Positions 10,057 through 58,608 of a stretch of 64,000 bases of DNA are shown one piece after another. The notes under the pieces were generated by a model. The model was not told the DNA's origin and did not search any database. It was given only the letters and a program-made list of their open reading frames with translations. The stretch is from assembly GCA_903912525.1 (NCBI GenBank), contig CAIWHK010000025.1:136881-200880 (forward strand), in the 5' to 3' direction. The first letter of the stretch is position 1. The number at the start of each line of letters is the position of its first letter. A program made the position numbers and the translations under genes. This DNA is from an uncultured bacterium (GTDB taxonomy: Bacteria > Krumholzibacteriota > Krumholzibacteriia > LZORAL124-64-63).

Positions 10057-11178
10057 CTAGCGCAGCCGCTCAATCTCCTCGATCAGCACCTGTTCCAGGT
10101 CCGCCTTGTCGATGTTCCGGTGCAACTCACCTTTGCGATAGATGGCCACCTTGGTGCGCCCGGCGGCGATCCCGAGGTCGGCCGTCTTGGCTTCGCCAGG
10201 CCCGTTGACGATGCAGCCCATCACCGAGATGACCCGGTCCGCGGGCAGGTCGCGGGCCAGTTCCTCGACCCGGCTGGCCAGGGCGACCACGTCCACCTCG
10301 ACGCGACCGCAGGTCGGGCAGGCCACCACCCGGGCGTAGCCCTCGCGCAGGCCCAGGGCCTGCAGCATGTAGAAGGCGGCCTTCACCTCGTACGCGGGGT
10401 CGTCGGCCAGGCTGATGCGCACCGTGTCGCCGATGCCTTCGCTCAGCAGCACCGACATCGCCGCCACCGACAGCGAGGTTCCGGCCAGCAGTGTGCCGGC
10501 CTCGGTCACGCCCAGGTGCTGCGGCACATCGCTGACGGCCGCGAAGCGCCGGCAAGCCTCGACCACCTCGTGCGGCGTGCTGCTCTTGAGGCTGACCGCC
10601 ACCTCGTGGAAGCCGAAGGCGGCCAGCGCCTCGATCTCGTCCAGGGCGCTTTGCACCAGTGCGCCGGCCGCGTCGCGCTTGACGAGACCGTCGTAGCGCT
10701 TGTGCAAGCTGCCGCGGTTGACGCCGATGCGGATGGGCACGCCCATGTCCTGCGCGGCGCGGGCCACCTCCCGCACGTGGTCGCGCGAGCCGATGTTGCC
10801 GGGGTTGATGCGCAGCTTGGCCACGCCGGCCTTCAGCGCCGCGAGCGCCATCGTGTGGTCGTAGTGGATGTCGGCGATGAGCGGCAGGTTGGCCTCGCGC
10901 ACAAGCTGCGGCATGGCGTCGGCAGCCGCCTGGTCGTTGACCGTCACGCGCACATACTCGGCGCCGGCCGAGGCCAGCTCGCGGATCTGCTCCAGCGTCG
11001 CCTGCACATCGCCCGTCTTCGTCGTGGTCATGCTTTGCACGCGCACCGGGGCGCCGCCGCCCATCGGCAGGCCGCCCACGTTGATCTGCCGGGTCGGGCG
11101 CCGCGGCGCACACACCGGGCGCGGCGGCACGCGGCCGGGATCCAGGTCGATCAGGCCATTGTCGATCGGTTCGTTCAT
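10057..11178 (-). CDS. ispG: 4-hydroxy-3-methylbut-2-enyl diphosphate synthase
   Basis: TRQINVGGLPMGGGAPVRVQSMTTTKT... and C-terminal CPTCGR Fe-S motif, full-length GcpE/IspG. Confidence 0.9.
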   Translation of the reverse strand: MNEPIDNGLIDLDPGRVPPRPVCAPRRPTRQINVGGLPMGGGAPVRVQSMTTTKTGDVQATLEQIRELASAGAEYVRVTVNDQAAADAMPQLVREANLPLIADIHYDHTMALAALKAGVAKLRINPGNIGSRDHVREVARAAQDMGVPIRIGVNRGSLHKRYDGLVKRDAAGALVQSALDEIEALAAFGFHEVAVSLKSSTPHEVVEACRRFAAVSDVPQHLGVTEAGTLLAGTSLSVAAMSVLLSEGIGDTVRISLADDPAYEVKAAFYMLQALGLREGYARVVACPTCGRVEVDVVALASRVEELARDLPADRVISVMGCIVNGPGEAKTADLGIAAGRTKVAIYRKGELHRNIDKADLEQVLIEEIERLR

Positions 11179-13118
11179 CAGGTGCCGTCCCCCTTGCCGT
11201 CCCCGAGGGCCGGGCCGGCGCGGCGCAGGTCGCCGTCGCGCGCGGTCACGCCCGTCTGGTCGAGATATTCGAGCATCGGGATCCCGAGCTTGCGTGTCAG
11301 CCCGCTCAGCTCGCGGAACCCGCCGAAGGTCAGTTCCGGTTCAATCCTGAAGTGCGCCCGCAGGCGGGCCACCAGCGTGGCATAGGCGCGGGCGGAAACA
11401 AGGTACTCGCCACCGAGGGCCACCGCCCGTCCGTGATCGACCAGCCAACGAACCGCTTCGGCGGGCTTGAAATCCCGCAATGCGGCATCGGCTGCCGCCC
11501 GCTGGAACACCGGCGAACCGGCGGCCCAGTGGTCCAGTCCCGGCCAGTCCAGGCCCAGCCCGTCGAACTCGGCCGCGGCCTCGTCCATGGCGCGGCGCAG
11601 GCGTTCGCCCAGCTTCGGCCCCTCGGGCGACATCGCGATGCGGTCGCCGGCCACCACCCACAGGTCGGGCGCGGCCAGGGCGGCGCAGACGGCGTTCCAC
11701 TCGGCCACGCCACCGCCGAACGCGCAGCGCTGCCGCACTTCCTCGCGCGAGACGCCCAGCCGCAGCGGGTACTTCCGCGCGTACTCGGCGACCTGCGCCC
11801 CCACCGCCTCGGCCAGCGCCGCCAGCGCCTCGCGGTGGTAGGCGCGCGCGCCGATCACCTGCAGCAGCGGCAGTTCGGCCCAGGCAGCGGCGCTGTCGGC
11901 CGGCAACCCCGCCGTGCCGGCGTCCAGCAGCTTCTTGAGGAAGAGGTCCTCCGGCGAGCCGGTCTCCAGCACCTTCAACTGCGCCAGCGCGTCATTGTCG
12001 AAGCGCTTGTGTTGCGCGGGCGCGGCTTCGAGCACGACGGCGCCGGCAACGCTGACCATGGGCGAATAGAAACGCAGCACCAGCCGGTCGCCGCGCGCGG
12101 CCACCAGGTCCTCCTCCAGGTGCAGTTGCGCCAGGGCGGTGCGCGCGGCCGCGGCCGCCTCGCCGCCCATCTCCTGCACGTCCAGCAGCACGATGCGGCC
12201 GAGCACCTCGCGCCCGGCGTGGTGCACGTGCAAACGCTGCCGGTTCTTCACCGAGCGGCGGCAGTGCTTCATCAGGTCCACGCGGATGTCGAGCCGCTTC
12301 GTGGTGACGGCCGCGCGCGGGGCGACGACCTGCTGGCCGCGCGCCATGTCGTCGCGCTTGACCCCGTGCAGCGCCAGCGCCAGCCGCTGGCCCGAAGCGC
12401 CGCGCGGCGCCGGGCGGCCGTGCACCTGCACCTCGCGCACGCGCACCGGCAGCGCGCCGGGTTCGATCATCAGCTTGTCACCCTCGGCCACCGAGCCGCC
12501 CCAGCAGGTGCCGGTGACGACGACGCCGGCGCCCGGCATCGTGAACACGCGATCAACGGGCAGGCGGAACGCGCCCTGCTCGGCCCGCCGCGGCAGCGCC
12601 AGCGCCTCGGCCTTCAGCGCCGCGCGCAGTTCGTCCAACCCGGTGCGCGCGTGCGCCGACACGGGCACAATGGGCTTCCCGGCCAGGAACGTGCCGGCCA
12701 CCAGGTCGGCGGCCTCTTCCATCACGACACCGACCAGGTCCTCGTCCACGGCATCGGTCTTGGTCACGACCACGATGCCGCTGCGCACCTTCAGCGCGTC
12801 GAGGATCTCGAGGTGCTCGATCGTCTGGGGCATCACGCCTTCGTCGGCGGCGATGACCAGGAACGCCAGGTCCACGCCGCCGGCGCCCGAGACCATCTGC
12901 CGGACGAACTTCTCGTGGCCCGGCATGTCGACGACGCCCAGTTGGATGCCGTCGCCGAGGTCCAGCTCGGCGAAGCCCAGCTCGATGCTGATGCCCCGCT
13001 CCTGCTCTTCCTTCAGGCGGTCGGTGTTGGTGCCCGTCAGGGCCTGCACGAGCGCGGTCTTGCCGTGGTCGACATGGCCGGCGGCGCCGAGGATGAAGTG
13101 GCGGGAGGGCTCGGTCAT
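11178..13118 (-). CDS. selB: selenocysteine-specific translation elongation factor
   Basis: N-terminal GTPase (GHVDHGKT, DMPGHEKF, TKTD) followed by SelB-type winged-helix C-terminal extension; stop overlaps ispG start (ATGA). Confidence 0.8.
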   Translation of the reverse strand: MTEPSRHFILGAAGHVDHGKTALVQALTGTNTDRLKEEQERGISIELGFAELDLGDGIQLGVVDMPGHEKFVRQMVSGAGGVDLAFLVIAADEGVMPQTIEHLEILDALKVRSGIVVVTKTDAVDEDLVGVVMEEAADLVAGTFLAGKPIVPVSAHARTGLDELRAALKAEALALPRRAEQGAFRLPVDRVFTMPGAGVVVTGTCWGGSVAEGDKLMIEPGALPVRVREVQVHGRPAPRGASGQRLALALHGVKRDDMARGQQVVAPRAAVTTKRLDIRVDLMKHCRRSVKNRQRLHVHHAGREVLGRIVLLDVQEMGGEAAAAARTALAQLHLEEDLVAARGDRLVLRFYSPMVSVAGAVVLEAAPAQHKRFDNDALAQLKVLETGSPEDLFLKKLLDAGTAGLPADSAAAWAELPLLQVIGARAYHREALAALAEAVGAQVAEYARKYPLRLGVSREEVRQRCAFGGGVAEWNAVCAALAAPDLWVVAGDRIAMSPEGPKLGERLRRAMDEAAAEFDGLGLDWPGLDHWAAGSPVFQRAAADAALRDFKPAEAVRWLVDHGRAVALGGEYLVSARAYATLVARLRAHFRIEPELTFGGFRELSGLTRKLGIPMLEYLDQTGVTARDGDLRRAGPALGDGKGDGT

Positions 13119-13236
13119 GCGCTTGGTCTTCCCGCGTTGCGGTCAGGAGGCACGGCGCCGGTCGCGGCGCGAGGGGTCACTATACACCGTGGCGACCTCC
13201 CGTCGCCACCGGCCGGGTGCGCGCCGCGCCACGGGC

Positions 13237-27983: not shown

Positions 27984-28271
27984 GGCTCTTCCCGTCCCGG
28001 GAGCACCCGGGGTCGCAAGGTCGTGGGGCCGGCTAACGGCATTCCCCCGAGGGGCTAACGGACAAGATACCAGATCGGCCCCGCGCTTGCTACCACCGGG
28101 AGGGACGTTCGGCCGGCGCCCCCAATGGGGTCAAGAACGGCTTTTCATGTGTTTCCTGTTGCCGCGCCGGGTGCCGAACCGGCATATTCAGGGAACAAAC
28201 CCCTGATTCGGCTCCTTACACGCCGAGCCCCGGAGGGATCCGGGCGACACGTCTGGGTTTGTGCACGGAGG

Positions 28272-30017
28272 ATGGATCGTTTGCGCCGCCTGCTCCTGAC
28301 AATCTTCATCACCTGCGCAGCGACCGCGCTTCCCGCCTGGGGGGCCGATCTTCGCGTTCCCGGCACCTATGCCACGATCAGCGCGGCGCTCTCGTCCGCG
28401 TCCGCCGGTGACCGTGTGCTCGTGACCGCCGGGACGTACCGCGAGCACGGGCTGGTCCTTCGCGACGGTGTTGTCCTGGCCGGCGCCGGCCCATCGCCCG
28501 ACGCCGTCATCATCGACGGCCAGGACGCCGGCCGCATCCTCACCTGCGAGAACACGACGCGCGCCGCGGAAGTGCGCAACCTGACCTTTACGCGCGGCCG
28601 CGCCGTCGGCGCCACGCTGCGCGAAGGCAGCGGCGGCGCCATCCTGTGCAACCATGCCGCGCTGACCATCGCCGACTGTCATTTCCGCGGCAACAGCGCC
28701 GAACAGAACGGCGGCGCCGTCTGGATTCTCGAGGCGTCGCCCACGATCACCGGCTGCGTGTTCAGCGGCAACACGGCCGGCGGCGGCGGCGGCGGCGTCG
28801 ATTGCACGCTCAACGCATCGCCCAGCCTGCAGAACTGCCGCTTCGAGAACAACCAGGCCGACTGGGGCGCCGGCCTGTCGTGCCGCGACATCTCGTCGCC
28901 CGTCGTCATCTCCACGATGTTCATCGCCAACACGACCGTCGGGACCCGCGGCTACGGCGGCGGCGCGTTCGCCGACCTCGACTCGAAGCCCGCCTTCCTG
29001 TCCTGCACCTTCACGGCGAACCAGGCGCGCTACGGCGGCGCGGTGGCGAACTTCGCCGGCGCCGACGCCACGCTGGTGCGCTGCACGCTGGTCGGCAACC
29101 ACGGCACCTGGCGCGGCGCAGGCATCTACACGAACAACGCCTCGACGACGATCGGCGCGAGCATCATCGCCTTCCATGACGGCCCCGGCGTGTTCTCGGG
29201 CGGGACCTACGGCCCGCAACTGAACCAGTGCGACCTCTACGGGAACACCGGCGGCAACTGGACGGGCGCCGCGGCGCCCGCAGGCATCGGAGCCGCAAAC
29301 CTGGCGCGCAACCCGCTGTTCTGCGTCGCTTCCGACCCGGCGACGCTGACGTTCGCCCTGCAGGACGGCTCGCCCTGCCACCCCGACAGCAACGGGGGCC
29401 TGACGCTCGGTGCCTGGCCTGCCGGCTGCGGCGCTCCCCTGCCCTCCACGCTCCAACTGGCCGCGAACTGGGCCGGCAACCAGGCCCGCCTGGCCTGGAG
29501 CCTGCCGGACGGCCTGGGCGTGGTGCCCGCGTTCCGGCTGACGGGCGCGCTGGCGACCACGCCCGAGGTAACCTGGGAGATCCCGTTCACCGACCAGGGC
29601 GGCGGGCAGTTCGTCGCCGACGACCCCGGCGCCGCGCTGCAGGGCGAAGGCCCGTTCACCTGGTGCCTGTATGCGCAGTTCGCGGGCGGGGACTGGACGC
29701 TGATGGCGCAGGTGACCATGGACCTGCCGCGCGACGTGCCGGGCGTCAGCCATGTCATGGCGGCGCCGAATCCGTTCAACCCAGCGACGTCGATCCGCTT
29801 CCAGCTTGCCGTGTCCCAGCGCGTGCGCGTGACGGTTTACGACATGGTGGGACGGCTGGTGGCGAGACTGGCCGACCAGGTCTTCACGGTCGGCGAGAAC
29901 GCGGTCACCTGGGACGGGCAGGCCGACGATGGTCGCGACCTGGCGTCGGGCACCTACCTGGTCCTGGTCGACAGCCCGGGGCGCGAGGTCTCGACCAAGG
30001 TCACGCTGTTCAAATAA
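28272..30017 (+). CDS. right-handed parallel beta-helix repeat protein with C-terminal T9SS-type (NPFNP / FlgD-Ig-like) sorting domain
   Basis: Signal peptide after GGAGG RBS; repeated NxxGGA/pectin-lyase-fold repeats; C-terminus NPFNPATSIRFQL...VYDMVGRLV...WDGQADDGRDLASGTYLVLV...KVTLFK. Confidence 0.7.
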   Translation: MDRLRRLLLTIFITCAATALPAWGADLRVPGTYATISAALSSASAGDRVLVTAGTYREHGLVLRDGVVLAGAGPSPDAVIIDGQDAGRILTCENTTRAAEVRNLTFTRGRAVGATLREGSGGAILCNHAALTIADCHFRGNSAEQNGGAVWILEASPTITGCVFSGNTAGGGGGGVDCTLNASPSLQNCRFENNQADWGAGLSCRDISSPVVISTMFIANTTVGTRGYGGGAFADLDSKPAFLSCTFTANQARYGGAVANFAGADATLVRCTLVGNHGTWRGAGIYTNNASTTIGASIIAFHDGPGVFSGGTYGPQLNQCDLYGNTGGNWTGAAAPAGIGAANLARNPLFCVASDPATLTFALQDGSPCHPDSNGGLTLGAWPAGCGAPLPSTLQLAANWAGNQARLAWSLPDGLGVVPAFRLTGALATTPEVTWEIPFTDQGGGQFVADDPGAALQGEGPFTWCLYAQFAGGDWTLMAQVTMDLPRDVPGVSHVMAAPNPFNPATSIRFQLAVSQRVRVTVYDMVGRLVARLADQVFTVGENAVTWDGQADDGRDLASGTYLVLVDSPGREVSTKVTLFK

Positions 30018-36140: not shown

Positions 36141-38119
<1,979 letters not shown>

Positions 38120-38123
<4 letters not shown>

Positions 38124-38557
38124 CGACCGGCATCCACGATCTCGACGATGCGCACGCCGGGTCCGAGTTCCGTGCCCGGCTGGACGTAACCGATCGCGCC
38201 GGGGTTATCGCGCACGAAAAGGACGACTTCGTCGGCGGTATCCCTCACCGGCGGCGGGAGGGCGCGGCCCGAGAAGATGCGCTGCTGCCAGAACGCCCGC
38301 ACCGCGTTCACGTTTCGCATCAGGATCTCCTGGCTGAATGCGGCCCTGATCGGGGCGGCCGCGGGCTGGTCCACCGGCAACACGGGCAGGCCCTCGCCCC
38401 AGAAGGTCACTTTCTTGAGAAAGAGACGCGACAGTTCCTCGCGGTCGATCCGCGTTGCCGGATTGGCGGCATTGACGATGACCACGAAATCAGACGCGGG
38501 CCGGGAAGGCGCCACGGCGGGCGCCAGGAGCAGGAACCCGAGCACGACGGCGATCAC
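38120..38557 (-). CDS. small periplasmic substrate-binding-like protein (phosphonate/PBP-like domain), likely HK partner
   Basis: Signal peptide then [13 protein letters not shown]...AIGYV resembling PhnD/PBP-type binding domains; putative GTG start; stop overlaps HK start (ATGA). Confidence 0.4.
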
Positions 38558-38585
38558 TCGCGTCCGTGAAGGGCGGCATTTGCTG

Positions 38586-39698
38586 TCAGAACGCAAATTG
38601 CACCCCCAGCGAAACGAGGTTGGTCCGCTGCACCAGTTCCCCGCCGTCCAGGACCGCCTCCGGATCCCCGGGACGCGCGAATCGATTCCCATCGACGCGC
38701 GAGACCGAGAGCTTGGCGACGAACTCCGGCGCGAACCAGTAGTTAAGCCCCGCGGTGAGCTCGCGGTGGCGCAGCATGCATTCCGCTGCAGGCTCGAGGC
38801 TGTCTTCGAGGCGCGTCCGCGAGTGGTCGACGCGGGCCGCGACCTGCCAGCCGCCATGGACCACCCGCGAAACCTCGACATAGGCGGCATCGACGTCGGC
38901 GGCGTCGGCCTGCTCCACCACGACCACTTCGCCCCGCGCCGCCCAGTCCCCCGCATTCCAATCCGCCAGCGCGCCCACGCAGGACCGGCGTCCCCCGTCC
39001 ACGCCGTCCTCCCGCCCGGTGTAGGCAGAGAGTCCCAGGCGAAGGTCGACGCCTGGCATCCCGACCACAAACCGCATCCCGGTGATGTCCCGCAGGGCGA
39101 TCTCATCGGAGTCTTCGCCGACTTCGGCTTCGTCGCCGCCGGATACCGGGATCTCCGTGAATTCCAGGTCCGTCTCGCCCGCATAGACGTCGTAGTCCAG
39201 CTGGTAGCCACGCTTGAACGTAGTGCCGGTCAGCCCGACGCCCCGGTACGACTCGGCCACGATGCCCGCCGGCCCGTAGATCCCTTCCGGCAACCAGAAG
39301 AAGGGCCTGAGGGTGCCGACATCGTAGATCTCCGTGTAGATCCCGAACGGATGCTTGATCTGGCCCATCCGCAGCTTCAAGGCGTCAGCCACGCACCACT
39401 CGCCGAAGGCGTAGTCGATGGTGGCTGTACCGGGCTCACCGGCTGATTCCTCCCACCAGAGCTGGGTGCTGATGCGCACGTCGGGCGACACCTGCGACGC
39501 CAGCGTCACCGCCAGGTTGTGGTACCCGCCGTCCCCGGCCTTGCTGGACGCGTGGTAGAGGTTGTCGTCGGAGCCGCTGCGGCTGTAGCTCCAGCTTCCA
39601 TAGCCGTGGATCTCGACGTCTCCGGACGCCGCTCTGGCCGGGCTCGACAGGAGTGCGATCGCCAGAACGACGCCCCCGGTGACCATTGATCGCAACAT
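38586..39698 (-). CDS. outer-membrane beta-barrel (porin-like) protein
   Basis: Signal peptide MLRSMVTGGVVLAIALLSSPARA, amphipathic beta strands, C-terminal ...GVQFAF. Confidence 0.5.
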   Translation of the reverse strand: MLRSMVTGGVVLAIALLSSPARAASGDVEIHGYGSWSYSRSGSDDNLYHASSKAGDGGYHNLAVTLASQVSPDVRISTQLWWEESAGEPGTATIDYAFGEWCVADALKLRMGQIKHPFGIYTEIYDVGTLRPFFWLPEGIYGPAGIVAESYRGVGLTGTTFKRGYQLDYDVYAGETDLEFTEIPVSGGDEAEVGEDSDEIALRDITGMRFVVGMPGVDLRLGLSAYTGREDGVDGGRRSCVGALADWNAGDWAARGEVVVVEQADAADVDAAYVEVSRVVHGGWQVAARVDHSRTRLEDSLEPAAECMLRHRELTAGLNYWFAPEFVAKLSVSRVDGNRFARPGDPEAVLDGGELVQRTNLVSLGVQFAF

Positions 39699-39920
39699 GC
39701 GTCCTCTCGTTCCCCACGGCACGCCCGACGGCGAGTCGGGCCTATCCGACAATGACAGGTCGTTGAGTCCCGCGACAGGCGCGGGTCGCCAACGGTTTGG
39801 TTCTCCATTTTGAATCGGCGTTTTCGTCGTGCTTCTCTAGGGAGAAACTACCATCAGGGGCAAAAAGATAAGCGCCGCCGGGCGTGACCCGGCGGCGCAA
39901 ATTCATACTGATTCTGAATG

Positions 39921-42647
39921 CTATTTCGCCAAGGTCATCCGCTTCGTCTCGCTGACCTCGCCGGCCCGCAGGCGGTAGACGTAGACGCCGGTGGCCACGG
40001 GGCGGCCCGCCTCGTCACGGCCCTGCCAGGTGTGCTCGTGGCGCCCCTGCGTCTGTTCGCCGGTGAAGACGGTGTCGACCAGGCGGCCCGCCAGGTCATA
40101 GATGCTCAGCTCGACCGGGCCGGCCACGTTCAGCTCGTAACGGATGACCGTCGACGGGTTGAACGGGTTCGGCACGTTCTGTAGCAGCTCGACGACGGCG
40201 TTCGCGCCGGGCAGCGGCGCCGCGCTCAGTTCGGGATGGAACATCTTGGTGACGAAATCTGGGCGATCGATGAACGGGTTGCGGTTGCCCTGGATCGCGT
40301 AGATCGCCTCGTTGCGGTCGATCTCCTTCTGGCTGACCGGGTCCTGCGTGTTCCATTCGAGCAGCAGGGCCTTCGTCCAGGCCGCCAGTTCGCACCTCGT
40401 GGCCGCGGGCGAGCTGGACCAGGCAGAGTCCTCGGTGTAGTAGCGCGTGGTCACGTAGAAGTACGTGCGCGCGAAGTCGCCCTTGTAGGCGTCGATGGGC
40501 TCGAACACCGTGCCCGTGTAGCCCGGGTAGGCATTGGGCCCGACCTTGCAGCCGTTGAGCGTCGTCCACGTGGGCGACGTCACCTCGCCGTACGGGTAGT
40601 TGCTGCGCCGGTTGTTCACGTCGTTGTCGGTCGGGTAGAGCTGGAACAGGTCGGTGTACATCGGCGCCAGGCTATTGAACCAGCTGGCCGGCCACGAGTG
40701 CTCGCGGTTGTACCCGGTGCCCTCGGTGCCCGCCGAGCCGCCCTGGTCGACGCCGAACGTGTACTCGTAGGGCGGGATGCCGCCGGGAACGTCCGAGTAC
40801 ATGTCCCAGACCTTGCCGTTGGGCTTGTCGTCGGTCGTGTAGAACGCCGTCCACAGGCCCGTGTAGCTGATCGAACTGTGGCCGTCGATGATGTTGTGCA
40901 GCGCCAGGCGCAGCGTGTCGCCGGTCAGGCCCTCGGCCGGGTTGTAGTAGCCGACGGGGATGTTGCCGCCGTAGTAGTTGAACACCAGCTGGGCGTTGCT
41001 GATGGTGTTGCCGTACGCGTCGGCCACGCCGTTGACCGTCAGCGTGTGGGCGCCGCTGGCCATGGTCGTGACGGTCAGCGCGACCGTCTCGGGCTGTCCG
41101 GCCACGATGGCCGCGCCGTTGACGCTGCAGCCGGTCACCGTGTAGTTGGCGGCGACGTTGGCGCTGGCGGCGGCGACGGGCTCGGAGAAGGTCACCTTGA
41201 CGGAGGTGAGGCCGGCGGGCAGCACCGACGCGATCGTCGGCACGTACGTGTCGCTCACGAACACGACGTCCCCGGCCGAGCGGGGCACGATGCCGTCGTC
41301 GACCGTGCTGCCGCTGACCGGGCCGGTGATCGTGTAGTGCGTGCCCAGCACCAGGTTCGGGCTGACGCCCAGGTCGTCGACGGCGATGGCGCCGGCGCCG
41401 CTGTCGACTTCCCAGCGCGGCGTCGAGGCGGCGCTGAGCGTGCAGGCCACATCGACCAGCTGGACCAGGACGCCCTCGTAGTCCTCGGCCAGGGCGGCGC
41501 TGGAACTGAGGACCTCGGCCGCCGTCCCGAAGCCGGAGCCGAGGAGGGTGACGGTCGCGGAAGTCAGCGTCGTGTTGCTGCTGACCTCGGCGACGACGCC
41601 GGTCACCTGGACGAGCGAGCCCACGGCCGGCGCGGCGACGGCGCCGGTGACCCACAGGCCGCTGCGCGCGCCCGTGCCGTCCTGGATCACGAACGTGGTG
41701 CCGAAGACGCCCGTGACCACGCCGTTCGTGACGGCGGTCTGGCCCACGAGCGGCGACGCGGCGCCGGTGCCCTGGATCGCGGCGATCGTCACCGTGTTGG
41801 GCACGCCGAAGTTCTGCACGCCGGACACGGTCTGCCCCGTGTTGGCGTTCACGGCCGTGATCGTGTAGAAGACCGTCGTGCCGGCGGCCTGCGCCGGGAT
41901 GGCCGAGGACGTCAGGTAGGTGCTGCCGCCCGTGTTGGTCATCGCGATGGCGTTGGTCAGCGATCCGGAGACGGTGCCCCAGTTCAGCGTGACGCTGCTG
42001 ACGGCCGCCAGCGCGTCGGTGACGGTCGCCTGGACGTTGACGGGGTCGCCCAGCGCCGGCGAGGCCGGGATCGTCGTGATGGCCGTGATGGACGGGCCGG
42101 AGACCTGGTTGTGCACGCCGGGCGTGGCCTGCGTCGGGAAGTCGACGGCGGTGCCGGTCCACTGGGAGGACACGAACGTCGCGCTGCCCGTGGTGACGTC
42201 CGCGTGGCGCACATAGGTCTGGTCCTTGAATTCCGCCAGCGTGACGAGCAGGCCGTCGACCACGGTCCCGGACCCGTTCTTCAGCTTGGCGCCGTCACCG
42301 ACCTGGCCGTTCCAGTTCGTGTTGCTGGTCGACCAGGCGGCGCCGACGAAGTCGCGCGTGAAGGGCACCACCGGCGCATCATCGCCGGCGACCAGGGCCT
42401 GTCCCGGCGCGATGGTGCCGGACAGGTTCCAGGTGAAGACGTCGATGCTGTTGCCCACGGCGACCAGCTGCCAGCCGGTCAGGCTGACCGGCGATGCGCC
42501 CGTGTTGTAGATCTCGATGTAGCGGTCGGTCAGGTAGTTCAGGCGCGGGTCGCAGAGCTCGGAAATGATGATGTCCGCGCGCGCGATGGGCGCCAGGACG
42601 GACAGCATCAGCAGGAGCACGGTCAGGCGGGCGACGAATTTCTTCAT
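39921..42647 (-). CDS. secreted multidomain nuclease: lamin-tail domain + Ig-like repeats + endonuclease I family + T9SS-type C-terminal domain
   Basis: LTD (IIISELCDP...YIEIYNTG), endonuclease I block (EHSWPASWF...NDVNNRRSNYPYG...), C-terminal NVPNPFNPSTVIRYEL...YDLAGRLV...K; start at MKKFVARLTVLLL (cat 42645-42647). Confidence 0.75.
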   Translation of the reverse strand: MKKFVARLTVLLLMLSVLAPIARADIIISELCDPRLNYLTDRYIEIYNTGASPVSLTGWQLVAVGNSIDVFTWNLSGTIAPGQALVAGDDAPVVPFTRDFVGAAWSTSNTNWNGQVGDGAKLKNGSGTVVDGLLVTLAEFKDQTYVRHADVTTGSATFVSSQWTGTAVDFPTQATPGVHNQVSGPSITAITTIPASPALGDPVNVQATVTDALAAVSSVTLNWGTVSGSLTNAIAMTNTGGSTYLTSSAIPAQAAGTTVFYTITAVNANTGQTVSGVQNFGVPNTVTIAAIQGTGAASPLVGQTAVTNGVVTGVFGTTFVIQDGTGARSGLWVTGAVAAPAVGSLVQVTGVVAEVSSNTTLTSATVTLLGSGFGTAAEVLSSSAALAEDYEGVLVQLVDVACTLSAASTPRWEVDSGAGAIAVDDLGVSPNLVLGTHYTITGPVSGSTVDDGIVPRSAGDVVFVSDTYVPTIASVLPAGLTSVKVTFSEPVAAASANVAANYTVTGCSVNGAAIVAGQPETVALTVTTMASGAHTLTVNGVADAYGNTISNAQLVFNYYGGNIPVGYYNPAEGLTGDTLRLALHNIIDGHSSISYTGLWTAFYTTDDKPNGKVWDMYSDVPGGIPPYEYTFGVDQGGSAGTEGTGYNREHSWPASWFNSLAPMYTDLFQLYPTDNDVNNRRSNYPYGEVTSPTWTTLNGCKVGPNAYPGYTGTVFEPIDAYKGDFARTYFYVTTRYYTEDSAWSSSPAATRCELAAWTKALLLEWNTQDPVSQKEIDRNEAIYAIQGNRNPFIDRPDFVTKMFHPELSAAPLPGANAVVELLQNVPNPFNPSTVIRYELNVAGPVELSIYDLAGRLVDTVFTGEQTQGRHEHTWQGRDEAGRPVATGVYVYRLRAGEVSETKRMTLAK

Positions 42648-42940
42648 GCAGGAGGACCTCGCGCGGGAATCGGGAGGTGATGACTCCGGCACCAAGGGCG
42701 GAGTCAGGGCAACGGCACCATAACCGTCAATGATGGTACCACATATAGATGCGCGCGGCAGCAGGAAAAATCAAATGATTCTCAACTGGAAGCCCGGGCT
42801 ACAAAGATCCCGATTATGTGATTTCGGATTGATTGAGGCCGTTCAGCGGATCTGGTACGATAAACGGGAAGGACTTGGGGGCCGACAGGGACTTTGCATT
42901 TCGGCATGTTCGCCGTCGCCGCCGTTCCCGAACGCTGAGG

Positions 42941-43600
42941 ATGGCCATCATGCGCCGGCCCTACGCCCGTCACCTGGCCTTGTTCGTTGCCGTCATCGCA
43001 TGGTGCCATGTGTGCGCGGGAGCCGCAGGCGCCCAGCCGTCGAACTCGATCGGCATCTATGCCACGCCAAGCGCGGACCAGGCCGAGGTCGTCCCGGCCC
43101 CCCTGTTCGTGCCAATCAACATCTACTTCGTCCTGACCGACCCCCGCACGACGTCGGGAACGCCCGTGACGGCGATCGACGGCTTCGAGTTCCTCGTCCG
43201 GATCACGGGCACGCGCGCGAACCTGCTGCGGCTGAATGAGCTCACGCCGGCAAGTACGATCAACGTCGGCGACCACCAGGATCCGTTCTATGCGACCTAC
43301 AGGTGCAGCTGGCCCACGCCGATCGGCGTCTATGGCGGCCTGGTGACGCTGATGACGTGGCAGCTCTTCCTCGTCAACGCGCCCTCGACGTATTTCATGT
43401 ACCTCGAGCCCGCGTCGCCGGCGACGATCCCGAACCAGCTCAGCTTCGGCTACCGCGTCGGCGCGACCCATTACGTCCGCGCCGCGACCGGGACACAGGC
43501 CCTCTATTCGCAACCGGTGTTCGCGATCGGGGCGTACCTGAACCCGCCGGTCGCGGGGGAATCCAGGACGTTCGGGGACGTCAAGGCGTTGTTCAGGTAG
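42941..43600 (+). CDS. hypothetical secreted protein
   Basis: Signal peptide after GAGG RBS; no recognised family. Confidence 0.4.
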   Translation: MAIMRRPYARHLALFVAVIAWCHVCAGAAGAQPSNSIGIYATPSADQAEVVPAPLFVPINIYFVLTDPRTTSGTPVTAIDGFEFLVRITGTRANLLRLNELTPASTINVGDHQDPFYATYRCSWPTPIGVYGGLVTLMTWQLFLVNAPSTYFMYLEPASPATIPNQLSFGYRVGATHYVRAATGTQALYSQPVFAIGAYLNPPVAGESRTFGDVKALFR

Positions 43601-43612
43601 CAGCCCCCCTGC

Positions 43613-45616
43613 CTAACGGCCGCCGATCTCCCGCAGCAGCTGCGCCGCCGCCTCGTTGCCGGGATCGTCGGCCAGGACACGGCGCAACTCCGTCGCCGCC
43701 GCGCCCTGGTCGCCCGCCGCCAGGTACGACCGCGCCAGGTTGATCCGTGCCGGCGCGAAACCGTCATCGACCCTCAGCGCCTGCTCGAAGCTGCGCCGCG
43801 CGCCCGCCGCATCACCCTGGATGCCCATCAGGGCACCGAGATTGTTCAGCGCCTGCGGCTGCGCCGGGTCGAGCGCCAGGCCCTGCTCGATCTCGGCCCG
43901 GGCCTGGTCGTAGCGTCCCTGCGCGGCATGGATGAGGCCCAGGGTGGTGAGCGTCGCCCCCCGGCGCGGGTCCAGCCGCAGCGCCGCCTGCGCCGCCTGC
44001 TCCGCCTCGGCGAAGCGGCCCATCGCGTGCAGCGTCACGGCCATCTGGTAGGGCACGTCGGGATCCTGCGGAGCCAGCGGCAGCGCGGCCTGCAGCGCGG
44101 CCAGCGAGCGCTCGAACTCGCCCTTTTCGCGCCACGTGACGCCCAGGCTGACGTGGCTCTCGAAGTCGCGCGGCAGCAGGTCGCGGGCGCGTTCATAGGT
44201 GGCGATGGCCTGGTCGAGGCGGCCGGCGCGCGTCAGCTGCAACCCCTCGTGCAGGTACTGCGCGTAGAGCGCGGCCTTGTGGTCGAGCGGGCGCCGCGCG
44301 GGCGCGGTGTACGCTGCCGCTGCCAGCGCCACCAGGCCCAGGATGCCCACGGTGCGCCACGCGCGGGCGCGCACCGCCGTGACCAATGCCATGACGAACG
44401 CCGCCCCAAAGATGGCCAGGTACGGCACCAGCACGACACGATAGCGGGTGGTGACGAAGAACAGGGCGACGCTGAGTGCGGTCAGCAGCACGGCGCCGTA
44501 GAGCACGCCCAGCTCGCGCCACCGGCGCGCCAGCGCCAGCATGCCGGCCACCGCCAGGAGCGCCAGCGGCCACAGCCCGAGCGTGCCCCAGCGCAGGACC
44601 GGCCACCGCCGGTGCTCGTACCCGAACCATTCGATCTGCGGCTTGTCCTGGCCGCCGAGGAACAGGTCGACCTTGCCCAGGTAGCGACCCAGCCAGCCTG
44701 CGGGATCGCGGCGGAACTGCTCATTCGCGCGGCCCGCCCAGTAGCGTGAGACCGCGGCCGAGTCGAGGTCGCGGCCGAGCGCCGTCTCGGCGGTGTTCTC
44801 GGCGTTCCAGCTGCTGTCGGTGTCGAGCTTACCCTGCAAGGCGTCACCGTGCGCGTTGCCGGTGTAGAAATTGAAGCCGCCGCTCGAGGTGATGAGGACC
44901 GGCGCCCCTTCCACAGCGAGGTTGCGGATGAAGGTCGCGGACGGCGCGGCGAACAGGCCGGCGGCGAAGACCGCCAGAGTGATGAGGAGTTGCCGGCGCG
45001 GCAGTCGCGGCGCGCGCAGCAACGGCAGCAGCGCCAGGGGCGCCAGCAGCAACAGCGTCGGGCGCCCGGTCGCGGCCAGCCCCAGCAGCAGGCCTGCGGC
45101 GCCCAGTCGGAGCGGGCGCGAACTGTCCTTGACGCCGGTTGCCAGCAGCAGGCCGCCGGCGAGCAACGTCGAGACGAGCACCTCCATCAGCAGCTTGCCC
45201 TCGAAGAACACTTGCGGGCCCGAGAAGGCGACGAGGCCCGCGGCGACGAGCGCCGTGCGGCGGTCGAACCAGCGCCGAGCCAGGGCGTAGGTCAGTCCCG
45301 AGAGGACCAGACCGAGGATGTGCTGCAGGATGATCGCGACGACCGCGCTCGCACCCGTGACCGCATAGACGGCGCCCAGTGCGTACGCGTAGAGCGGGCC
45401 GAAGAAGTAGGCCTTGTCCGAGCCGATGCCGTGGCCATGGGCGATGCTGCGGGCCATGTCGTCGTAGACGGCTTCGTCCCAGAGGGGGACGGTGAAAGTG
45501 GGATCGTGGCGGACCTGGAGCCAGAAGGACAGGCGCAGCGCGGCGGCGGCCAGCAGGATCACGAACAGGGGGTGGCGCGTCGCCCTCGACAATCGGCTGG
45601 TCATCGGCGTGTTCAC
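43613..45616 (-). CDS. GT39 (PMT/ArnT-like) membrane glycosyltransferase with C-terminal TPR repeats (TMTC-like), second copy
   Basis: DE motif (LWDEAVYDD) in first loop, ~11 TM helices, C-terminal TPR block. Confidence 0.7.
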   Translation of the reverse strand: MNTPMTSRLSRATRHPLFVILLAAAALRLSFWLQVRHDPTFTVPLWDEAVYDDMARSIAHGHGIGSDKAYFFGPLYAYALGAVYAVTGASAVVAIILQHILGLVLSGLTYALARRWFDRRTALVAAGLVAFSGPQVFFEGKLLMEVLVSTLLAGGLLLATGVKDSSRPLRLGAAGLLLGLAATGRPTLLLLAPLALLPLLRAPRLPRRQLLITLAVFAAGLFAAPSATFIRNLAVEGAPVLITSSGGFNFYTGNAHGDALQGKLDTDSSWNAENTAETALGRDLDSAAVSRYWAGRANEQFRRDPAGWLGRYLGKVDLFLGGQDKPQIEWFGYEHRRWPVLRWGTLGLWPLALLAVAGMLALARRWRELGVLYGAVLLTALSVALFFVTTRYRVVLVPYLAIFGAAFVMALVTAVRARAWRTVGILGLVALAAAAYTAPARRPLDHKAALYAQYLHEGLQLTRAGRLDQAIATYERARDLLPRDFESHVSLGVTWREKGEFERSLAALQAALPLAPQDPDVPYQMAVTLHAMGRFAEAEQAAQAALRLDPRRGATLTTLGLIHAAQGRYDQARAEIEQGLALDPAQPQALNNLGALMGIQGDAAGARRSFEQALRVDDGFAPARINLARSYLAAGDQGAAATELRRVLADDPGNEAAAQLLREIGGR

Positions 45617-57528: not shown

Positions 57529-57693
57529 GGGCGCTCCCAGGGGACGGGTCGATGCCGCAACACATGGCCCTGATTCTAGCGGACCCAAGACGGCGTTGTC
57601 GACAAATCCGACTGATTTTATCTGTTTTAATGTTATCATGATCGGCGACCACGGATGCCGCCCCGCCATCGTCAATCCACGGGATGGAATGCC

Positions 57694-58608
57694 ATGAACG
57701 ACCACGCCAAAATGTTGCGGGCGCTGACCCTGCTGCTCCTGCTCCTGCCCGCGGCAGGCCTGGCCCAACTGGCGCAGAGCACCTTCGCCACCGGGACCGA
57801 CGACTGGCTGAGCGTGACGATGCCCTACCCCAGCGCCATCCCCCCGACCATCCTGAGCGTGTACACACCCACCTGGGTGGCGGCAAGCGGCGGGTACCTG
57901 TCGATGGTCGATCCCGACGGGACGGGAGCCGGCAACACCGAATACTGGCAGGCGCCGGCGGCGTTCCTCGGTGCGAAGGGTGCGGCCTACGGCGGGACGC
58001 TGGCCTTCGACATCGGCAACGCGGGAACTGGATATCCGCCATTCGCGGAGGAGGACCTCATCCTGGTCGGCGGCGGGCTCACGCTGGCGGCGATGCTGCC
58101 GTCGATGCCGACCGCGTCGCTTGGACACTACGCCATCACGTTGACCGAAGTCGGCTGGAAGCGGGACGCTCTGACCGGCCCCGACGCGACGCGCGCCGAG
58201 TTCCAGGCTGTGCTCGCGGACCTTGATCAGCTGTTCATCCGCGCCGAGTACCAGTTGGGTCCGGACACCGAATACCTCGACAATGTCCTCATGGCGTCCG
58301 GGACCTCGGCGGCCGGGCCGGCGGTCGGCGCCGGATTCGCGCTCGGGCGCTGTGCGCCGACCCCGTTCAATCCTTCGACCGTGATCACGCTGGATGTCGC
58401 GCAGGCGGAACGGATTCGCGTGGACATCGTCGATGCGGCCGGGCGCGCCGTGCGCCACCTGCGCGATGAGTCGCTGGAATCCGGGCTGCACCGCCTGGTC
58501 TGGGATGGCACGGACGACAAGGGGCTGCGCGCCGCGAGCGGGGTCTACTTCTGCCGTGCGTCGGCGGGCGAGATGGTTCTGGTGCGGAGCATGGTCCTGC
58601 TGAAGTGA
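57694..58608 (+). CDS. hypothetical secreted protein with T9SS-type C-terminal sorting domain
   Basis: Signal peptide MNDHAKMLRALTLLLLLLPAAGLAQ; C-terminus TPFNPSTVITLDV...IVDAAGRAV...WDGTDDKG...SGVYFCRA...K. Confidence 0.6.
   Translation: MNDHAKMLRALTLLLLLLPAAGLAQLAQSTFATGTDDWLSVTMPYPSAIPPTILSVYTPTWVAASGGYLSMVDPDGTGAGNTEYWQAPAAFLGAKGAAYGGTLAFDIGNAGTGYPPFAEEDLILVGGGLTLAAMLPSMPTASLGHYAITLTEVGWKRDALTGPDATRAEFQAVLADLDQLFIRAEYQLGPDTEYLDNVLMASGTSAAGPAVGAGFALGRCAPTPFNPSTVITLDVAQAERIRVDIVDAAGRAVRHLRDESLESGLHRLVWDGTDDKGLRAASGVYFCRASAGEMVLVRSMVLLK

What the first reader, a model, noticed from the sequence alone, without database searches (positions are those of the whole stretch)
39921..43600. Giant secreted LTD + endonuclease-I nuclease with T9SS-type C-terminal domain, followed by an unknown secreted protein and a TMTC-like glycosyltransferase
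The 908-aa protein combines a lamin-tail domain, long Thr/Val/Ala-rich Ig-like repeats, a clear endonuclease I catalytic block, and the same NPFNPSTVI...K C-terminal domain seen in two other proteins in the window (28272-30017 beta-helix protein, 57694-58608 unknown protein). It is a cell-surface or secreted DNase, with possible roles in DNA scavenging, biofilm remodelling, or defence against extracellular DNA or NETs. The downstream 220-aa secreted protein (42941-43600) has no family and could be a nuclease inhibitor or immunity partner, as often encoded beside secreted nucleases.
Basis: partly seen in the sequence, partly recalled or inferred. Interest (0 to 1): 0.5.

Follow-up and report, generated by a model that had tools for sequence, protein, structure and literature searches.

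The report
Secreted multidomain endonuclease I, unrelated neighbours
The region encodes an ordinary, widely conserved exported DNA/RNA-cutting enzyme of an uncultured Krumholzibacteria-like bacterium. The small neighbouring protein is not its partner, but it carries a short C-terminal tag that no searched library describes and that many exported proteins of this lineage share.

Summary
Window 39921-42647 (minus strand) encodes a 908-aa protein with these parts:
- a signal peptide;
- a lamin-tail domain;
- three distinct Thr/Val/Ala-rich beta domains, which are not repeats;
- an endonuclease I domain with the catalytic Glu-His and Asn motifs intact;
- an 80-aa FlgD_ig / T9SS type-A C-terminal domain, also found on two other window proteins.

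More than 240 full-length homologues with the same architecture exist, named mostly as Krumholzibacteria and Eisenbacteria MAGs. The gene ends in a strong terminator and has no conserved partner gene.

- The 219-aa ORF (42941-43600) is on the opposite strand, so it is divergent, not downstream.
- It sits beside the nuclease only in the nearest relative. It is absent within 10 kb of the nuclease in the other loci with a full-length homologue.
- It belongs to its own family of about 226 cluster representatives. An inhibitor or immunity role is therefore not supported.
- The PMT_2+TPR glycosyltransferase is a strain-specific insertion.
- T9SS core genes could not be tested.

Side finding: the 219-aa protein ends in an invariant tag, E-x-x-[ST]-[WF]-G-x-[VI]-K-x-L-[YF]-R-stop. 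At least 53 unrelated exported protein families in this lineage share it, and no Pfam model, NCBIfam model or paper searched covers it.

The parts
39921..42647 (-). CDS of the 908-aa secreted multidomain endonuclease I (stop codon 39921-39923)
   Evidence: ORF. Pfam and NCBIfam domains. More than 240 full-length homologues with the same architecture. AF2 model with mean pLDDT 80.
42576..42647 (-). Sec-type signal peptide, aa 1-24 (MKKFVARLTVLLLMLSVLAPIARA|D)
   Evidence: Read directly from the sequence. Modelled as one N-terminal helix, aa 2-17. No signal-peptide predictor was available.
42252..42584 (-). Lamin-tail domain (LTD), aa 22-132
   Evidence: PF00932, 51.4 bits against a cutoff of 34.3. 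Aa 4-169 also resemble the N-terminus of ExeM (NF033680, 39.9 bits, far below its cutoff).
41802..42095 (-). First Ig-like beta-sandwich, aa ~185-282
   Evidence: AF2 strands 186-281, pLDDT 80-93. 63% T/V/A/G/S. No Pfam hit.
41253..41750 (-). Beta domain shared with the N-terminal part of ExeM/NucH-type nucleases, aa ~300-465 (inferred nucleic-acid-binding module)
   Evidence: NF033681 ExeM_NucH_DNase model positions 2-109 match aa 308-398 (E 3.9e-4). The profile matches residues 2-116 of PDB 9sf8, an EEP-domain protein (E 2.8e-4). AF2 shows an all-beta domain. The binding function is inference.
40974..41240 (-). Second Ig-like domain, aa ~470-558
   Evidence: AF2 strands 472-558, pLDDT 85-94. 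Some homologues carry precomputed PF13205 (Big_5 by my recollection). Its position in those homologues was not checked.
40260..40925 (-). Endonuclease I catalytic domain, aa 575-796. Catalytic E649-H650 (REHSWP) and N678 (DVNNRRSN).
   Evidence: PF04231, 235 bits. PDB endonuclease I / Vvn hits at about 1e-10. Alignment with E. coli EndA. R648, E649, H650, N678 and R681 are invariant in 29 homologues.
39924..40172 (-). C-terminal FlgD_ig / T9SS type-A sorting domain, aa 826-908
   Evidence: PF13860, 42.3 bits. TIGR04183, 35.4 bits against a cutoff of 23. Seven predicted strands, pLDDT 80-90. Aligns with two other window proteins.
39862..39898 (-). Intrinsic-terminator-like hairpin directly after the nuclease stop codon
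   Evidence: 12-bp stem with 11 G-C pairs, 3-nt loop, then TTATCTTTTT. It implies a monocistronic nuclease transcript.
42648..42940 (.). 293-bp divergent intergenic region between the nuclease and the 219-aa ORF
   Evidence: Sequence read. No sigma-70-like promoter match, which is uninformative for this lineage.
42941..43600 (+). 219-aa exported protein: signal peptide, ~140-aa beta-sandwich, linker, C-terminal tag. The start may instead be the ATG at 42950.
43559..43597 (+). C-terminal tag ESRTFGDVKALFR, followed by the stop codon
   Evidence: Invariant in the close homologues. 103 of 148 family representatives match the strict pattern and about 30 more are near-variants. The tag is also on unrelated exported proteins.
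43613..45616 (-). 667-aa PMT_2 + TPR membrane glycosyltransferase. It is a neighbour, not part of a functional unit.
   Evidence: PF13231, 39.6 bits, plus many TPR families. Absent from the syntenic locus L001 and from all nuclease loci.
28059..30017 (+).
   Evidence: Beta_helix plus FlgD_ig. Tail alignment.
57631..58608 (+). Laminin_B-domain protein with the same C-terminal domain
   Evidence: PF00052, 83 bits, plus FlgD_ig, 38 bits. Tail alignment.

Best explanation
The 908-aa gene encodes a non-specific, divalent-metal-dependent DNA/RNA endonuclease of the endonuclease I (Vvn/EndA, beta-beta-alpha-metal) family. It is made with a Sec signal peptide.

Proposed mechanism:
- The protein crosses the inner membrane by Sec.
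- It is then most likely carried across the outer membrane through its 80-residue T9SS type-A / FlgD_ig C-terminal domain, and it is either released or held on the cell surface.
- The lamin-tail domain, the ExeM/NucH-like beta domain and two Ig-like spacers hold the catalytic head away from the cell and probably help it bind DNA.
- The likeliest role is breaking down extracellular DNA and RNA for phosphorus, nitrogen and carbon in an uncultured Krumholzibacteria-like bacterium.

It is a stand-alone, monocistronic gene. The adjacent 219-aa exported beta-sandwich protein and the PMT_2+TPR glycosyltransferase are unrelated neighbours.

Shown: domain content, conserved catalytic motifs, conserved architecture, terminator, lack of a conserved partner. 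Inferred: enzymatic activity, export route, DNA binding by the accessory domains, physiological role.
For: - Domain HMMs are above their curated thresholds: LTD, Endonuclease_1, FlgD_ig and TIGR04183.
- The EndA 'WEHVVP' and 'EVNGDRGN' motifs align with REHSWP (E649-H650) and DVNNRRSN (N678). These residues are invariant in 29 homologues of 48-84% identity.
- Solved endonuclease I structures (2PU3, 1OUP, 2G7E) match the profile at 1e-10 to 1e-7.
- More than 240 proteins have E<=1e-20. Nearly all of the 120 listed have the same ~908-aa architecture.
- Genome hits are titled Krumholzibacteriia and Eisenbacteria. Shorter endonuclease I + CTD versions occur in Neomarinimicrobiota and Bacteroidota records.
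- The AF2 model has pLDDT 80 with a 7-strand C-terminal sandwich.
- Three proteins in the window carry the CTD. Other CTD proteins lie within 6 kb of the nuclease in 20 of 43 loci.
- A strong terminator follows the stop codon.
- A T9SS-transported endonuclease I with DNase and RNase activity is reported for Riemerella anatipestifer (PMC12398890).
- T9SS is reported as possibly present in several non-Bacteroidota FCB phyla (PMC11285876).
- LTD-bearing extracellular nucleases such as ExeM, and a large LTD-nuclease in DNA-degrading sediment bacteria, are known (PMC6085458 listed; PMC8289736 read).
Against: - No T9SS core gene is in the window. No paper in the library links T9SS to Krumholzibacteriota or Eisenbacteria. 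The export route is therefore inferred from the CTD alone.
- The Pfam Por_Secre_tail model scores only 17.5 bits against a cutoff of 27.
- The cysteines that I recall forming disulfides in the Vvn/EndA-type enzymes have no aligned counterparts here, so folding and stability may differ.
- There is no experimental activity for any member of this 908-aa architecture.
- The nutrient-scavenging role rests on analogy. The flanks give no nucleoside or phosphate uptake operon that is conserved with the nuclease.
Confidence: 0.8

Rival explanations
1. Nuclease plus cognate inhibitor/immunity pair. In this reading, the 219-aa protein binds and neutralises the endonuclease I domain in the periplasm before export.
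For: The two genes are adjacent, with starts 293 bp apart, in the window and in the closest relative (L001/L002/L007). The small protein is exported, so it could meet the nuclease in the periplasm.
Against: - The genes are divergent, not co-transcribed.
- No homologue was found in any other fetched locus. These include about 40 loci with a full-length nuclease homologue and up to 10 kb of flank on each side.
- In the 56%-identity clade the gene follows an aldehyde dehydrogenase.
- The family has 226 representatives at 50% clustering, some fused to FG-GAP-like repeats and a T9SS-type CTD. That pattern suits a surface module, not an inhibitor.
- The window/L001 adjacency sits inside a block where the whole neighbourhood is syntenic, so it carries little information.
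Confidence: 0.03
2. The FlgD_ig tail is not a secretion signal here. In this reading it is a structural or adhesive Ig domain. The nuclease stays periplasmic like E. coli EndA or Vibrio Vvn and degrades incoming foreign DNA.
For: - Classical endonuclease I enzymes are periplasmic (established knowledge of EndA/Vvn).
- The best Pfam match of the tail is FlgD_ig, not Por_Secre_tail.
- The profile also hits FlgD structures at 6.5e-6.
- T9SS machinery was not demonstrated for this lineage.
Against: - The tail passes the curated TIGR04183 cutoff.
- It sits at the extreme C-terminus of many unrelated proteins: three in the window and more in 20 of 43 related loci. That behaviour fits a sorting domain.
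- NCBI names some homologues 'T9SS type A sorting domain-containing protein'.
- A 900-aa protein with an LTD, spacers and a DNA-binding-like module resembles the extracellular nucleases ExeM/Xds, not the ~230-aa periplasmic enzymes (PMC6085458 listed).
Confidence: 0.12
3. Surface nuclease used for biofilm-matrix remodelling or for DNA processing ahead of natural transformation, instead of nutrition.
For: Extracellular nucleases of Vibrio and Shewanella control eDNA in biofilms (PMC3212620, PMC6085458, PMC6746945; listed). The same molecular mechanism as in the best explanation would apply.
Against: No competence or biofilm genes flank the gene in the window or are conserved near homologues. 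With these data this role cannot be told apart from the nutritional role.
Confidence: 0.2

Closest known systems
Endonuclease I family (E. coli EndA, Vibrio vulnificus Vvn, V. cholerae Dns/EndA, Aliivibrio salmonicida EndA by my recollection; PF04231; PDB 1OUP, 2PU3, 2G7E)
   Same: Same catalytic domain across the full HMM. The Glu-His general-base motif, the Asn metal ligand, ARTYFY and QGN(H/R)NP motifs are conserved. A Sec signal peptide is present.
   Different: - About 4 times larger: five extra domains precede or follow the catalytic domain.
- The cysteines seen in EndA have no aligned counterpart.
- There are a ~14-aa insertion and an N-terminal helical extension.
- It is predicted to cross the outer membrane instead of staying periplasmic.
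T9SS-transported endonuclease I of Riemerella anatipestifer (AS87_RS02625; Shen et al. 2023, as cited in PMC12398890)
   Same: An endonuclease I enzyme that is a T9SS cargo, with reported DNase and RNase activity. Short endonuclease I + CTD homologues of the window protein occur in many Bacteroidota MAGs.
   Different: The window protein comes from a different phylum (Krumholzibacteria-like). It adds the LTD, two Ig-like domains and the ExeM/NucH-like domain. I did not check the Riemerella protein's own architecture.
ExeM (Shewanella) / Xds (Vibrio) / NucH extracellular nucleases
   Same: An N-terminal lamin-tail domain followed by a shared beta domain (NF033680 aa 4-169; NF033681 aa 308-398; PDB 9sf8). 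Both are large extracellular nucleases with a C-terminal sorting signal.
   Different: The catalytic domain there is endonuclease/exonuclease/phosphatase (EEP), here endonuclease I. ExeM's sorting signal is GlyGly-CTERM, as the NF033680 model name indicates, and here it is a T9SS-type CTD. Scores are far below the ExeM cutoffs (39.9 against 1300), so this protein is not a member.
For the 219-aa neighbour: cohesin modules, and C-terminal sorting tags such as the T9SS CTD or PEP-CTERM
   Same: A beta-sandwich for which both fold-search methods rank cohesin or cohesin-like modules first. One domain family ends either in the short tag or in a T9SS-type CTD. Domain families that take alternative anchors behave this way.
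   Different: - No sequence match to the Pfam Cohesin model.
- The tag is only ~17 residues, has no transmembrane stretch, and matches no curated model.

Membership tests
Endonuclease I (PF04231; Vvn/EndA type His-Me finger nuclease) | Full-length match to the family HMM above the curated threshold | tested here: met
   235.1 bits against a cutoff of 25. Model positions 1-234 of 235 match aa 575-796.
Endonuclease I (PF04231; Vvn/EndA type His-Me finger nuclease) | Catalytic Glu-His (general base) and Asn (metal ligand) motifs | tested here: met
   E649-H650 aligns with EndA WEHVVP and N678 with EVNGDRGN. The Vvn alignment covers the Asn motif. The residues are invariant in 29 homologues.
Endonuclease I (PF04231; Vvn/EndA type His-Me finger nuclease) | Metal-dependent non-specific nuclease activity | not testable with these tools
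   Needs an enzyme assay.
T9SS type-A CTD cargo protein | C-terminal domain matching TIGR04183 / PF18962 | tested here: met
   TIGR04183 scores 35.4 bits against a cutoff of 23. PF18962 scores only 17.5 against 27, while the related PF13860 FlgD_ig scores 42.3 against 27.
T9SS type-A CTD cargo protein | Domain at the extreme C-terminus, Ig-like 7-strand sandwich, plus an N-terminal Sec signal peptide | tested here: met
   The domain ends at the last residue. There are seven predicted strands at aa 819-906 with pLDDT 80-90. The signal peptide was read from the sequence.
T9SS type-A CTD cargo protein | T9SS core machinery (PorK/L/M/N or GldK-N, SprA/Sov, PorV, PorU) encoded in the same genome | not testable with these tools
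   None in the 64-kb window. No paper on these phyla was found. FCB phyla other than Bacteroidota are reported as possible T9SS carriers (PMC11285876).
T9SS type-A CTD cargo protein | CTD removed by PorU and cargo released or lipid-anchored | not testable with these tools
   Needs proteomics.
ExeM/NucH extracellular nuclease family (NF033680/NF033681) | Whole-protein match above cutoff, including the EEP catalytic domain | tested here: not met
   39.9 bits against 1300 and 19.4 against 300. Only the N-terminal LTD and one beta domain match, and there is no EEP domain.
Secreted nuclease with dedicated inhibitor/immunity gene | Partner gene co-oriented or co-transcribed and co-conserved with the nuclease across genomes | tested here: not met
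   The orientation is divergent. The partner is found beside the nuclease only in L001/L002/L007 and in no other fetched nuclease locus. The neighbour differs in the 56%-identity clade.
PMT_2/TMTC-like GT-C glycosyltransferase with TPR domain (ORF 43613-45616) | N-terminal PMT_2 membrane domain plus C-terminal TPR repeats | tested here: met
   PF13231 scores 39.6 bits against 26.1 at aa 74-224. Several TPR families (e.g. TPR_2 at 86 bits) match in aa ~450-665.
Cohesin module (for the 219-aa protein) | Cohesin HMM match or a convincing fold match | tested here: inconclusive

The most novel reading that the evidence does not exclude
The 219-aa neighbour ends in an undescribed C-terminal tag, roughly C..[TV]P[VT]E..[ST][WF]G.[VI]K.L[YF]R-COOH. 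In this reading, the tag is a sorting or surface-attachment signal specific to the Krumholzibacteria/Eisenbacteria-type lineages seen here. It would mark exported proteins for a dedicated export, anchoring or docking step, in parallel with the T9SS-type CTD used in the same genomes.

Evidence:
- 19 of 21 occurrences of the 9-residue core in 782 kb of these lineages are directly followed by a stop codon. There are none in 442 kb from Neomarinimicrobiota and Bacteroidota.
- A metagenome scan found 138 tagged ORFs. Of the 99 complete ones, 86 have a signal-peptide-like N-terminus by a crude rule. They fall into at least 53 unrelated families.
- The families recognised by Pfam include CHRD, LTD, NHL, beta-helix, PPC, CBM_4_9, C2 and C-type lectin.
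- Positions not fixed by the search pattern are also conserved: T/S at -10, P/A at -15, frequent E at -13 and frequent Cys at -19/-20.
- In the 219-aa family the short members end in the tag, while 8 long members end in a FlgD_ig-type CTD instead.
- No Pfam or NCBIfam model covers the tail, and no paper in the library was found.
Probability: 0.45. Interest if true: 0.65.

Novelty: new member of a known kind. Interest (0 to 1): 0.3.

Why it matters
The nuclease itself is a routine annotation. It documents that Krumholzibacteria- and Eisenbacteria-type bacteria carry a highly conserved surface or secreted endonuclease I. The architecture is modular: ExeM-like accessory domains are joined to an EndA-like catalytic head and a T9SS-type tail. 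This is relevant to extracellular-DNA turnover in lake, wastewater and sediment habitats. It also offers a candidate enzyme with built-in DNA-binding modules.

The correction matters for annotation practice. Adjacency in one genome suggested an immunity gene, and comparative synteny removes that idea.

The more interesting by-product is the short invariant C-terminal tag on the neighbouring protein. It marks dozens of unrelated exported proteins. If it is a sorting signal, it points to an unstudied protein-localisation pathway in uncultured FCB-related phyla.

Tried and rejected
- **Inhibitor/immunity hypothesis.** Tested by synteny in 43 nuclease loci and in contigs of distant homologues of the 219-aa protein. 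Rejected.
- **Conserved partner genes of the nuclease.** All-against-all clustering of flanking ORFs found only other CTD proteins, tricorn protease and histidine kinases in minorities of loci, plus a cold-shock gene downstream in Eisenbacteria loci. Nothing is functionally linked.
- **Operon with the downstream porin-like, PstS-like and histidine-kinase genes (36141-39752), as a phosphate-scavenging unit.** Rejected. A strong terminator separates them, and the block is absent from the nearest relative.
- **T9SS core genes.**
  - None in the window.
  - No SprA-sized ORF in about 1.7 Mb of fetched loci.
  - Literature searches for T9SS in these phyla were empty.
- **Whole-model Foldseek of the nuclease.** It returned only generic multi-Ig/FN3 proteins and was uninformative.
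- **afdb50 fold library.** Not available.
- **Protein-database search with a profile of the tag tail.**
  - The 40-residue version collected only 16 candidates and returned short fragments.
- **Literature search for the tag peptides.** Only chance string matches.
- **Recurrent neighbours of tagged genes in 120 metagenome stretches, looking for a sorting enzyme.** Only CTD-bearing proteins recur.
- **Rfam on the window and three loci.** No hits.

Full report
**What is in the sequence.** The window has about 70% G+C. It carries core chromosomal genes, including rho, prfA, prmC, selB, ispG and an EPSP-synthase-family gene. The finding covers three genes:
- 39921-42647, minus strand, 908 aa from the ATG;
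- 42941-43600, plus strand, 219 aa;
- 43613-45616, minus strand, 667 aa.

The first two genes are therefore divergent, with starts 293 bp apart. The second and third are convergent.

**The nuclease: domains.** Pfam gives LTD at aa 22-132, Endonuclease_1 at aa 575-796 (235 bits, covering the whole model) and FlgD_ig at aa 842-893. NCBIfam's T9SS type-A sorting-domain model TIGR04183 scores 35.4 bits against a cutoff of 23 at aa 826-904. Parts of the ExeM and ExeM/NucH models match aa 4-169 and aa 308-398, far below their cutoffs.

**The nuclease: catalytic residues.**
- A profile of 29 homologues hits solved endonuclease I structures (2PU3, 1OUP/Vvn, 2G7E) at 1e-10 to 1e-7. It also hits residues 2-116 of the EEP-domain protein 9sf8, through aa 289-384.
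- Aligned with E. coli EndA, REHSWP (E649-H650) matches WEHVVP, DVNNRRSN (N678) matches EVNGDRGN, and ARTYFY and QGNRNP are shared. The cysteines seen in EndA have no aligned counterpart, and there is a ~14-residue insertion.
- R648, E649, H650, N678 and R681 are invariant among homologues of 48-84% identity.

**The nuclease: predicted structure.** The AF2 model has mean pLDDT 80 and shows these parts:
- signal-peptide helix;
- LTD sandwich, aa ~25-170;
- Ig-like domain, aa ~185-282;
- larger all-beta domain, aa ~300-465;
- second Ig-like domain, aa ~470-558;
- alpha/beta nuclease domain, aa ~575-805;
- low-confidence linker, aa 808-817;
- seven-strand C-terminal sandwich.

The middle part is 62-66% T/V/A/G/S but has no internal sequence repeat.

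**Conservation and taxon.** More than 240 proteins match at E<=1e-20. Nearly all of the 120 listed are about 905-940 aa with the same three Pfam domains. Sources name them 'endonuclease I', 'endonuclease' or 'T9SS type A sorting domain-containing protein'.

In one-genome-per-species contigs the full-length form occurs mainly in records titled Candidatus Krumholzibacteriia (56-62% identity) and Candidatus Eisenbacteria (47-51%). A few records carry other labels. The closest hits (81-89%) are unclassified lake bins. Shorter endonuclease I + CTD forms occur in Neomarinimicrobiota, Ignavibacteria and Bacteroidota. The organism is thus a Krumholzibacteria-like member of the FCB group, and the protein is a well-populated but uncharacterised architecture.

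**Transcription unit and neighbours.**
- A 12-bp, 11-GC hairpin with a T-rich tail lies 23 nt after the stop codon, so the gene is most likely monocistronic.
- In the nearest relative (L001, 84% nuclease identity) the order is Na/Ala symporter, nuclease, 218-aa protein, HTH_34 regulator, aminotransferase, M28 peptidase, tricorn protease.
- That relative lacks two blocks found in the window. One is the histidine kinase, PstS-like and porin-like block (36141-39752). The other is the PMT_2+TPR glycosyltransferase (43613-45616). Both are strain-specific insertions at the nuclease flanks.
- tblastn of the window neighbours against all fetched loci finds the 219-aa protein next to the nuclease only in L001/L002/L007. 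It finds the glycosyltransferase and the porin-like protein nowhere.
- Clustering of flanking ORFs in 43 loci shows that only other CTD-bearing proteins recur, in 20 loci.
- A cold-shock gene follows the nuclease in several Eisenbacteria loci.

**The C-terminal domain.**
- The window has three proteins with it: the nuclease, a beta-helix protein and a Laminin_B protein.
- A common tail on unrelated exported proteins fits a sorting domain, and the tail passes NCBI's T9SS type-A threshold.
- T9SS core genes are absent from the window and could not be searched in the rest of the genome.
- The literature held here says T9SS may exist in several non-Bacteroidota FCB phyla (PMC11285876). It says nothing on Krumholzibacteriota or Eisenbacteria.
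- A T9SS-transported endonuclease I with DNase and RNase activity is known in Riemerella (PMC12398890).
- LTD-bearing extracellular nucleases are known, both ExeM (PMC6085458; listed) and a large LTD-nuclease in DNA-degrading sediment bacteria (PMC8289736).
- The best-supported mechanism is therefore Sec export, CTD-dependent passage of the outer membrane, and extracellular or surface DNA/RNA cleavage.
- I put confidence at about 0.8 for 'exported endonuclease I' and about 0.6-0.7 for the T9SS route.

**The 219-aa protein.**
- It has no Pfam or NCBIfam hit and only 8 close homologues in the word-indexed database.
- An exhaustive profile search finds 226 cluster representatives at E<=1e-3. Most are ~200 aa and matched end to end.
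- In the 56%-identity clade the gene lies after an aldehyde dehydrogenase.
- AF2 gives a modest model (pLDDT 60, core 70-82). It shows a signal helix, a ~140-residue beta-sandwich, a disordered linker and a short terminal helix.
- Together with the divergent orientation and the lack of co-conservation, this removes the inhibitor/immunity idea. I put that idea at about 0.03.

**The tag (side finding).**
- All close homologues end in FGxxKALFR.
- Across the family, 103 of 148 representatives match a strict pattern and about 30 more are near-variants. The consensus is P-V-A-[VT]-E-x-x-[ST]-[FW]-G-x-[VI]-K-[AS]-L-[FY]-R-stop.
- Eight long members carry the domain N-terminally and end instead in a FlgD_ig-type CTD.
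- The same tail ends unrelated exported proteins near nuclease homologues. These include CHRD, beta-helix, RCC1-like and unknown proteins.
- In 782 kb of Krumholzibacteria/Eisenbacteria-type DNA, 19 of 21 occurrences of the 9-residue core are directly followed by a stop codon. In 442 kb from other phyla there are none.
These hold 138 tagged ORFs, typically 160-330 aa. Of the 99 complete ones, 86 have a signal-peptide-like N-terminus by a crude rule.
- Residues outside the searched pattern are also conserved: T/S at -10, P/A at -15, frequent E at -13, and frequent Cys at -19/-20.
- The tagged ORFs fall into at least 53 BLAST-unrelated families.
- Pfam on 25 representatives finds CHRD, LTD, NHL, Beta_helix, PPC, CBM_4_9, C2 and Lectin_C. 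Most have no hit.
- No Pfam or NCBIfam model covers the tail, and a literature search for the peptide strings found nothing relevant.
- One metagenome protein has tag-like motifs at the ends of internal repeated modules. The motif is therefore not strictly terminal.
- I read the tag as a candidate lineage-specific sorting, anchoring or docking signal, with probability about 0.45. Rivals are a short structural or dimerisation helix, or a donor strand. I could not find a co-occurring candidate machinery gene.

**Verdict.** The nuclease interpretation is sound and ordinary, a new member of a known kind. The partner and glycosyltransferase links are not supported, and the T9SS machinery remains untested. 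The only unexpected item is the C-terminal tag on the neighbouring protein.

Noticed in passing
window 43559-43597 (+); also L009 1246-1911, L010 3719-4213, L025 696-1274 and 5615-6280, L044 7537-8175, L046 2279-3028 and 120 metagenome loci L089-L208: An invariant C-terminal tag, E..[ST][WF]G.[VI]K.L[YF]R followed by a stop codon, sits on exported proteins of at least 53 unrelated families. In the fetched genome loci it occurs only in Krumholzibacteria/Eisenbacteria-type DNA. No Pfam model, NCBIfam model or paper searched covers it.
   Followed up: partly
metagenome loci L090, L093, L095, L100, L103, L110, L121, L130, L132, L140: Two pattern matches lie on the same strand on one contig, about 0.5-1 kb apart in nine loci and about 4 kb apart in L140. 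This suggests tandem arrays of small paralogous tagged proteins. Several family members also share near-identical signal peptides (MKKLLFAVCALAAISLLAP...).
   Followed up: no
metagenome-derived protein, 9th representative (~700 aa): One protein has three repeated modules. Each ends in a tag-like motif (WSDVKSFYR, WSTVKSLYR, WGDIKRLYR). The motif can therefore be internal, at module ends, which argues for caution about a pure 'C-terminal signal' reading.
   Followed up: no
window 36141-39752 (-) and 43613-45616 (-): Two blocks flank the nuclease/219-aa pair. One is the hybrid histidine kinase, small PstS-like protein and OprO/P-like porin (which ends in ...QFAF). The other is the PMT_2+TPR glycosyltransferase. 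Both are absent from the otherwise syntenic locus of the nearest relative (L001), so the nuclease sits between two insertion-prone junctions.
   Followed up: partly
window 57631-58608 (+): A small exported protein combines a Laminin_B (domain IV) module (83 bits) with the FlgD_ig/T9SS-type tail.
   Followed up: no
window 44734-44824 (+): ARAGORN calls a 91-nt tRNA-Leu(GAG) inside, and antisense to, the glycosyltransferase ORF. Rfam at gathering threshold finds no tRNA there, so it is probably a false positive.
   Followed up: partly
L021 7611-7826 (+); similar in L020, L022, L025, L027, L028, L035, L037, L042: A cold-shock protein gene (GTVKWFNDSKGFGFI...) with a long conserved upstream region often lies beside the nuclease homologue in nine loci, several of them titled Eisenbacteria. 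It first showed up as a conserved antisense ORF cluster. It is not present beside the window gene.
   Followed up: partly
window 11178-13142 (-): A SelB-type selenocysteine elongation factor is encoded, so the organism probably makes selenoproteins.
   Followed up: no
representatives 10 and 17 (metagenome loci): Two ~210-230-aa exported proteins consist of a lamin-tail domain followed directly by the WGxxKxLYR tag. The LTD therefore occurs in these lineages with either kind of C-terminal ending.
   Followed up: no
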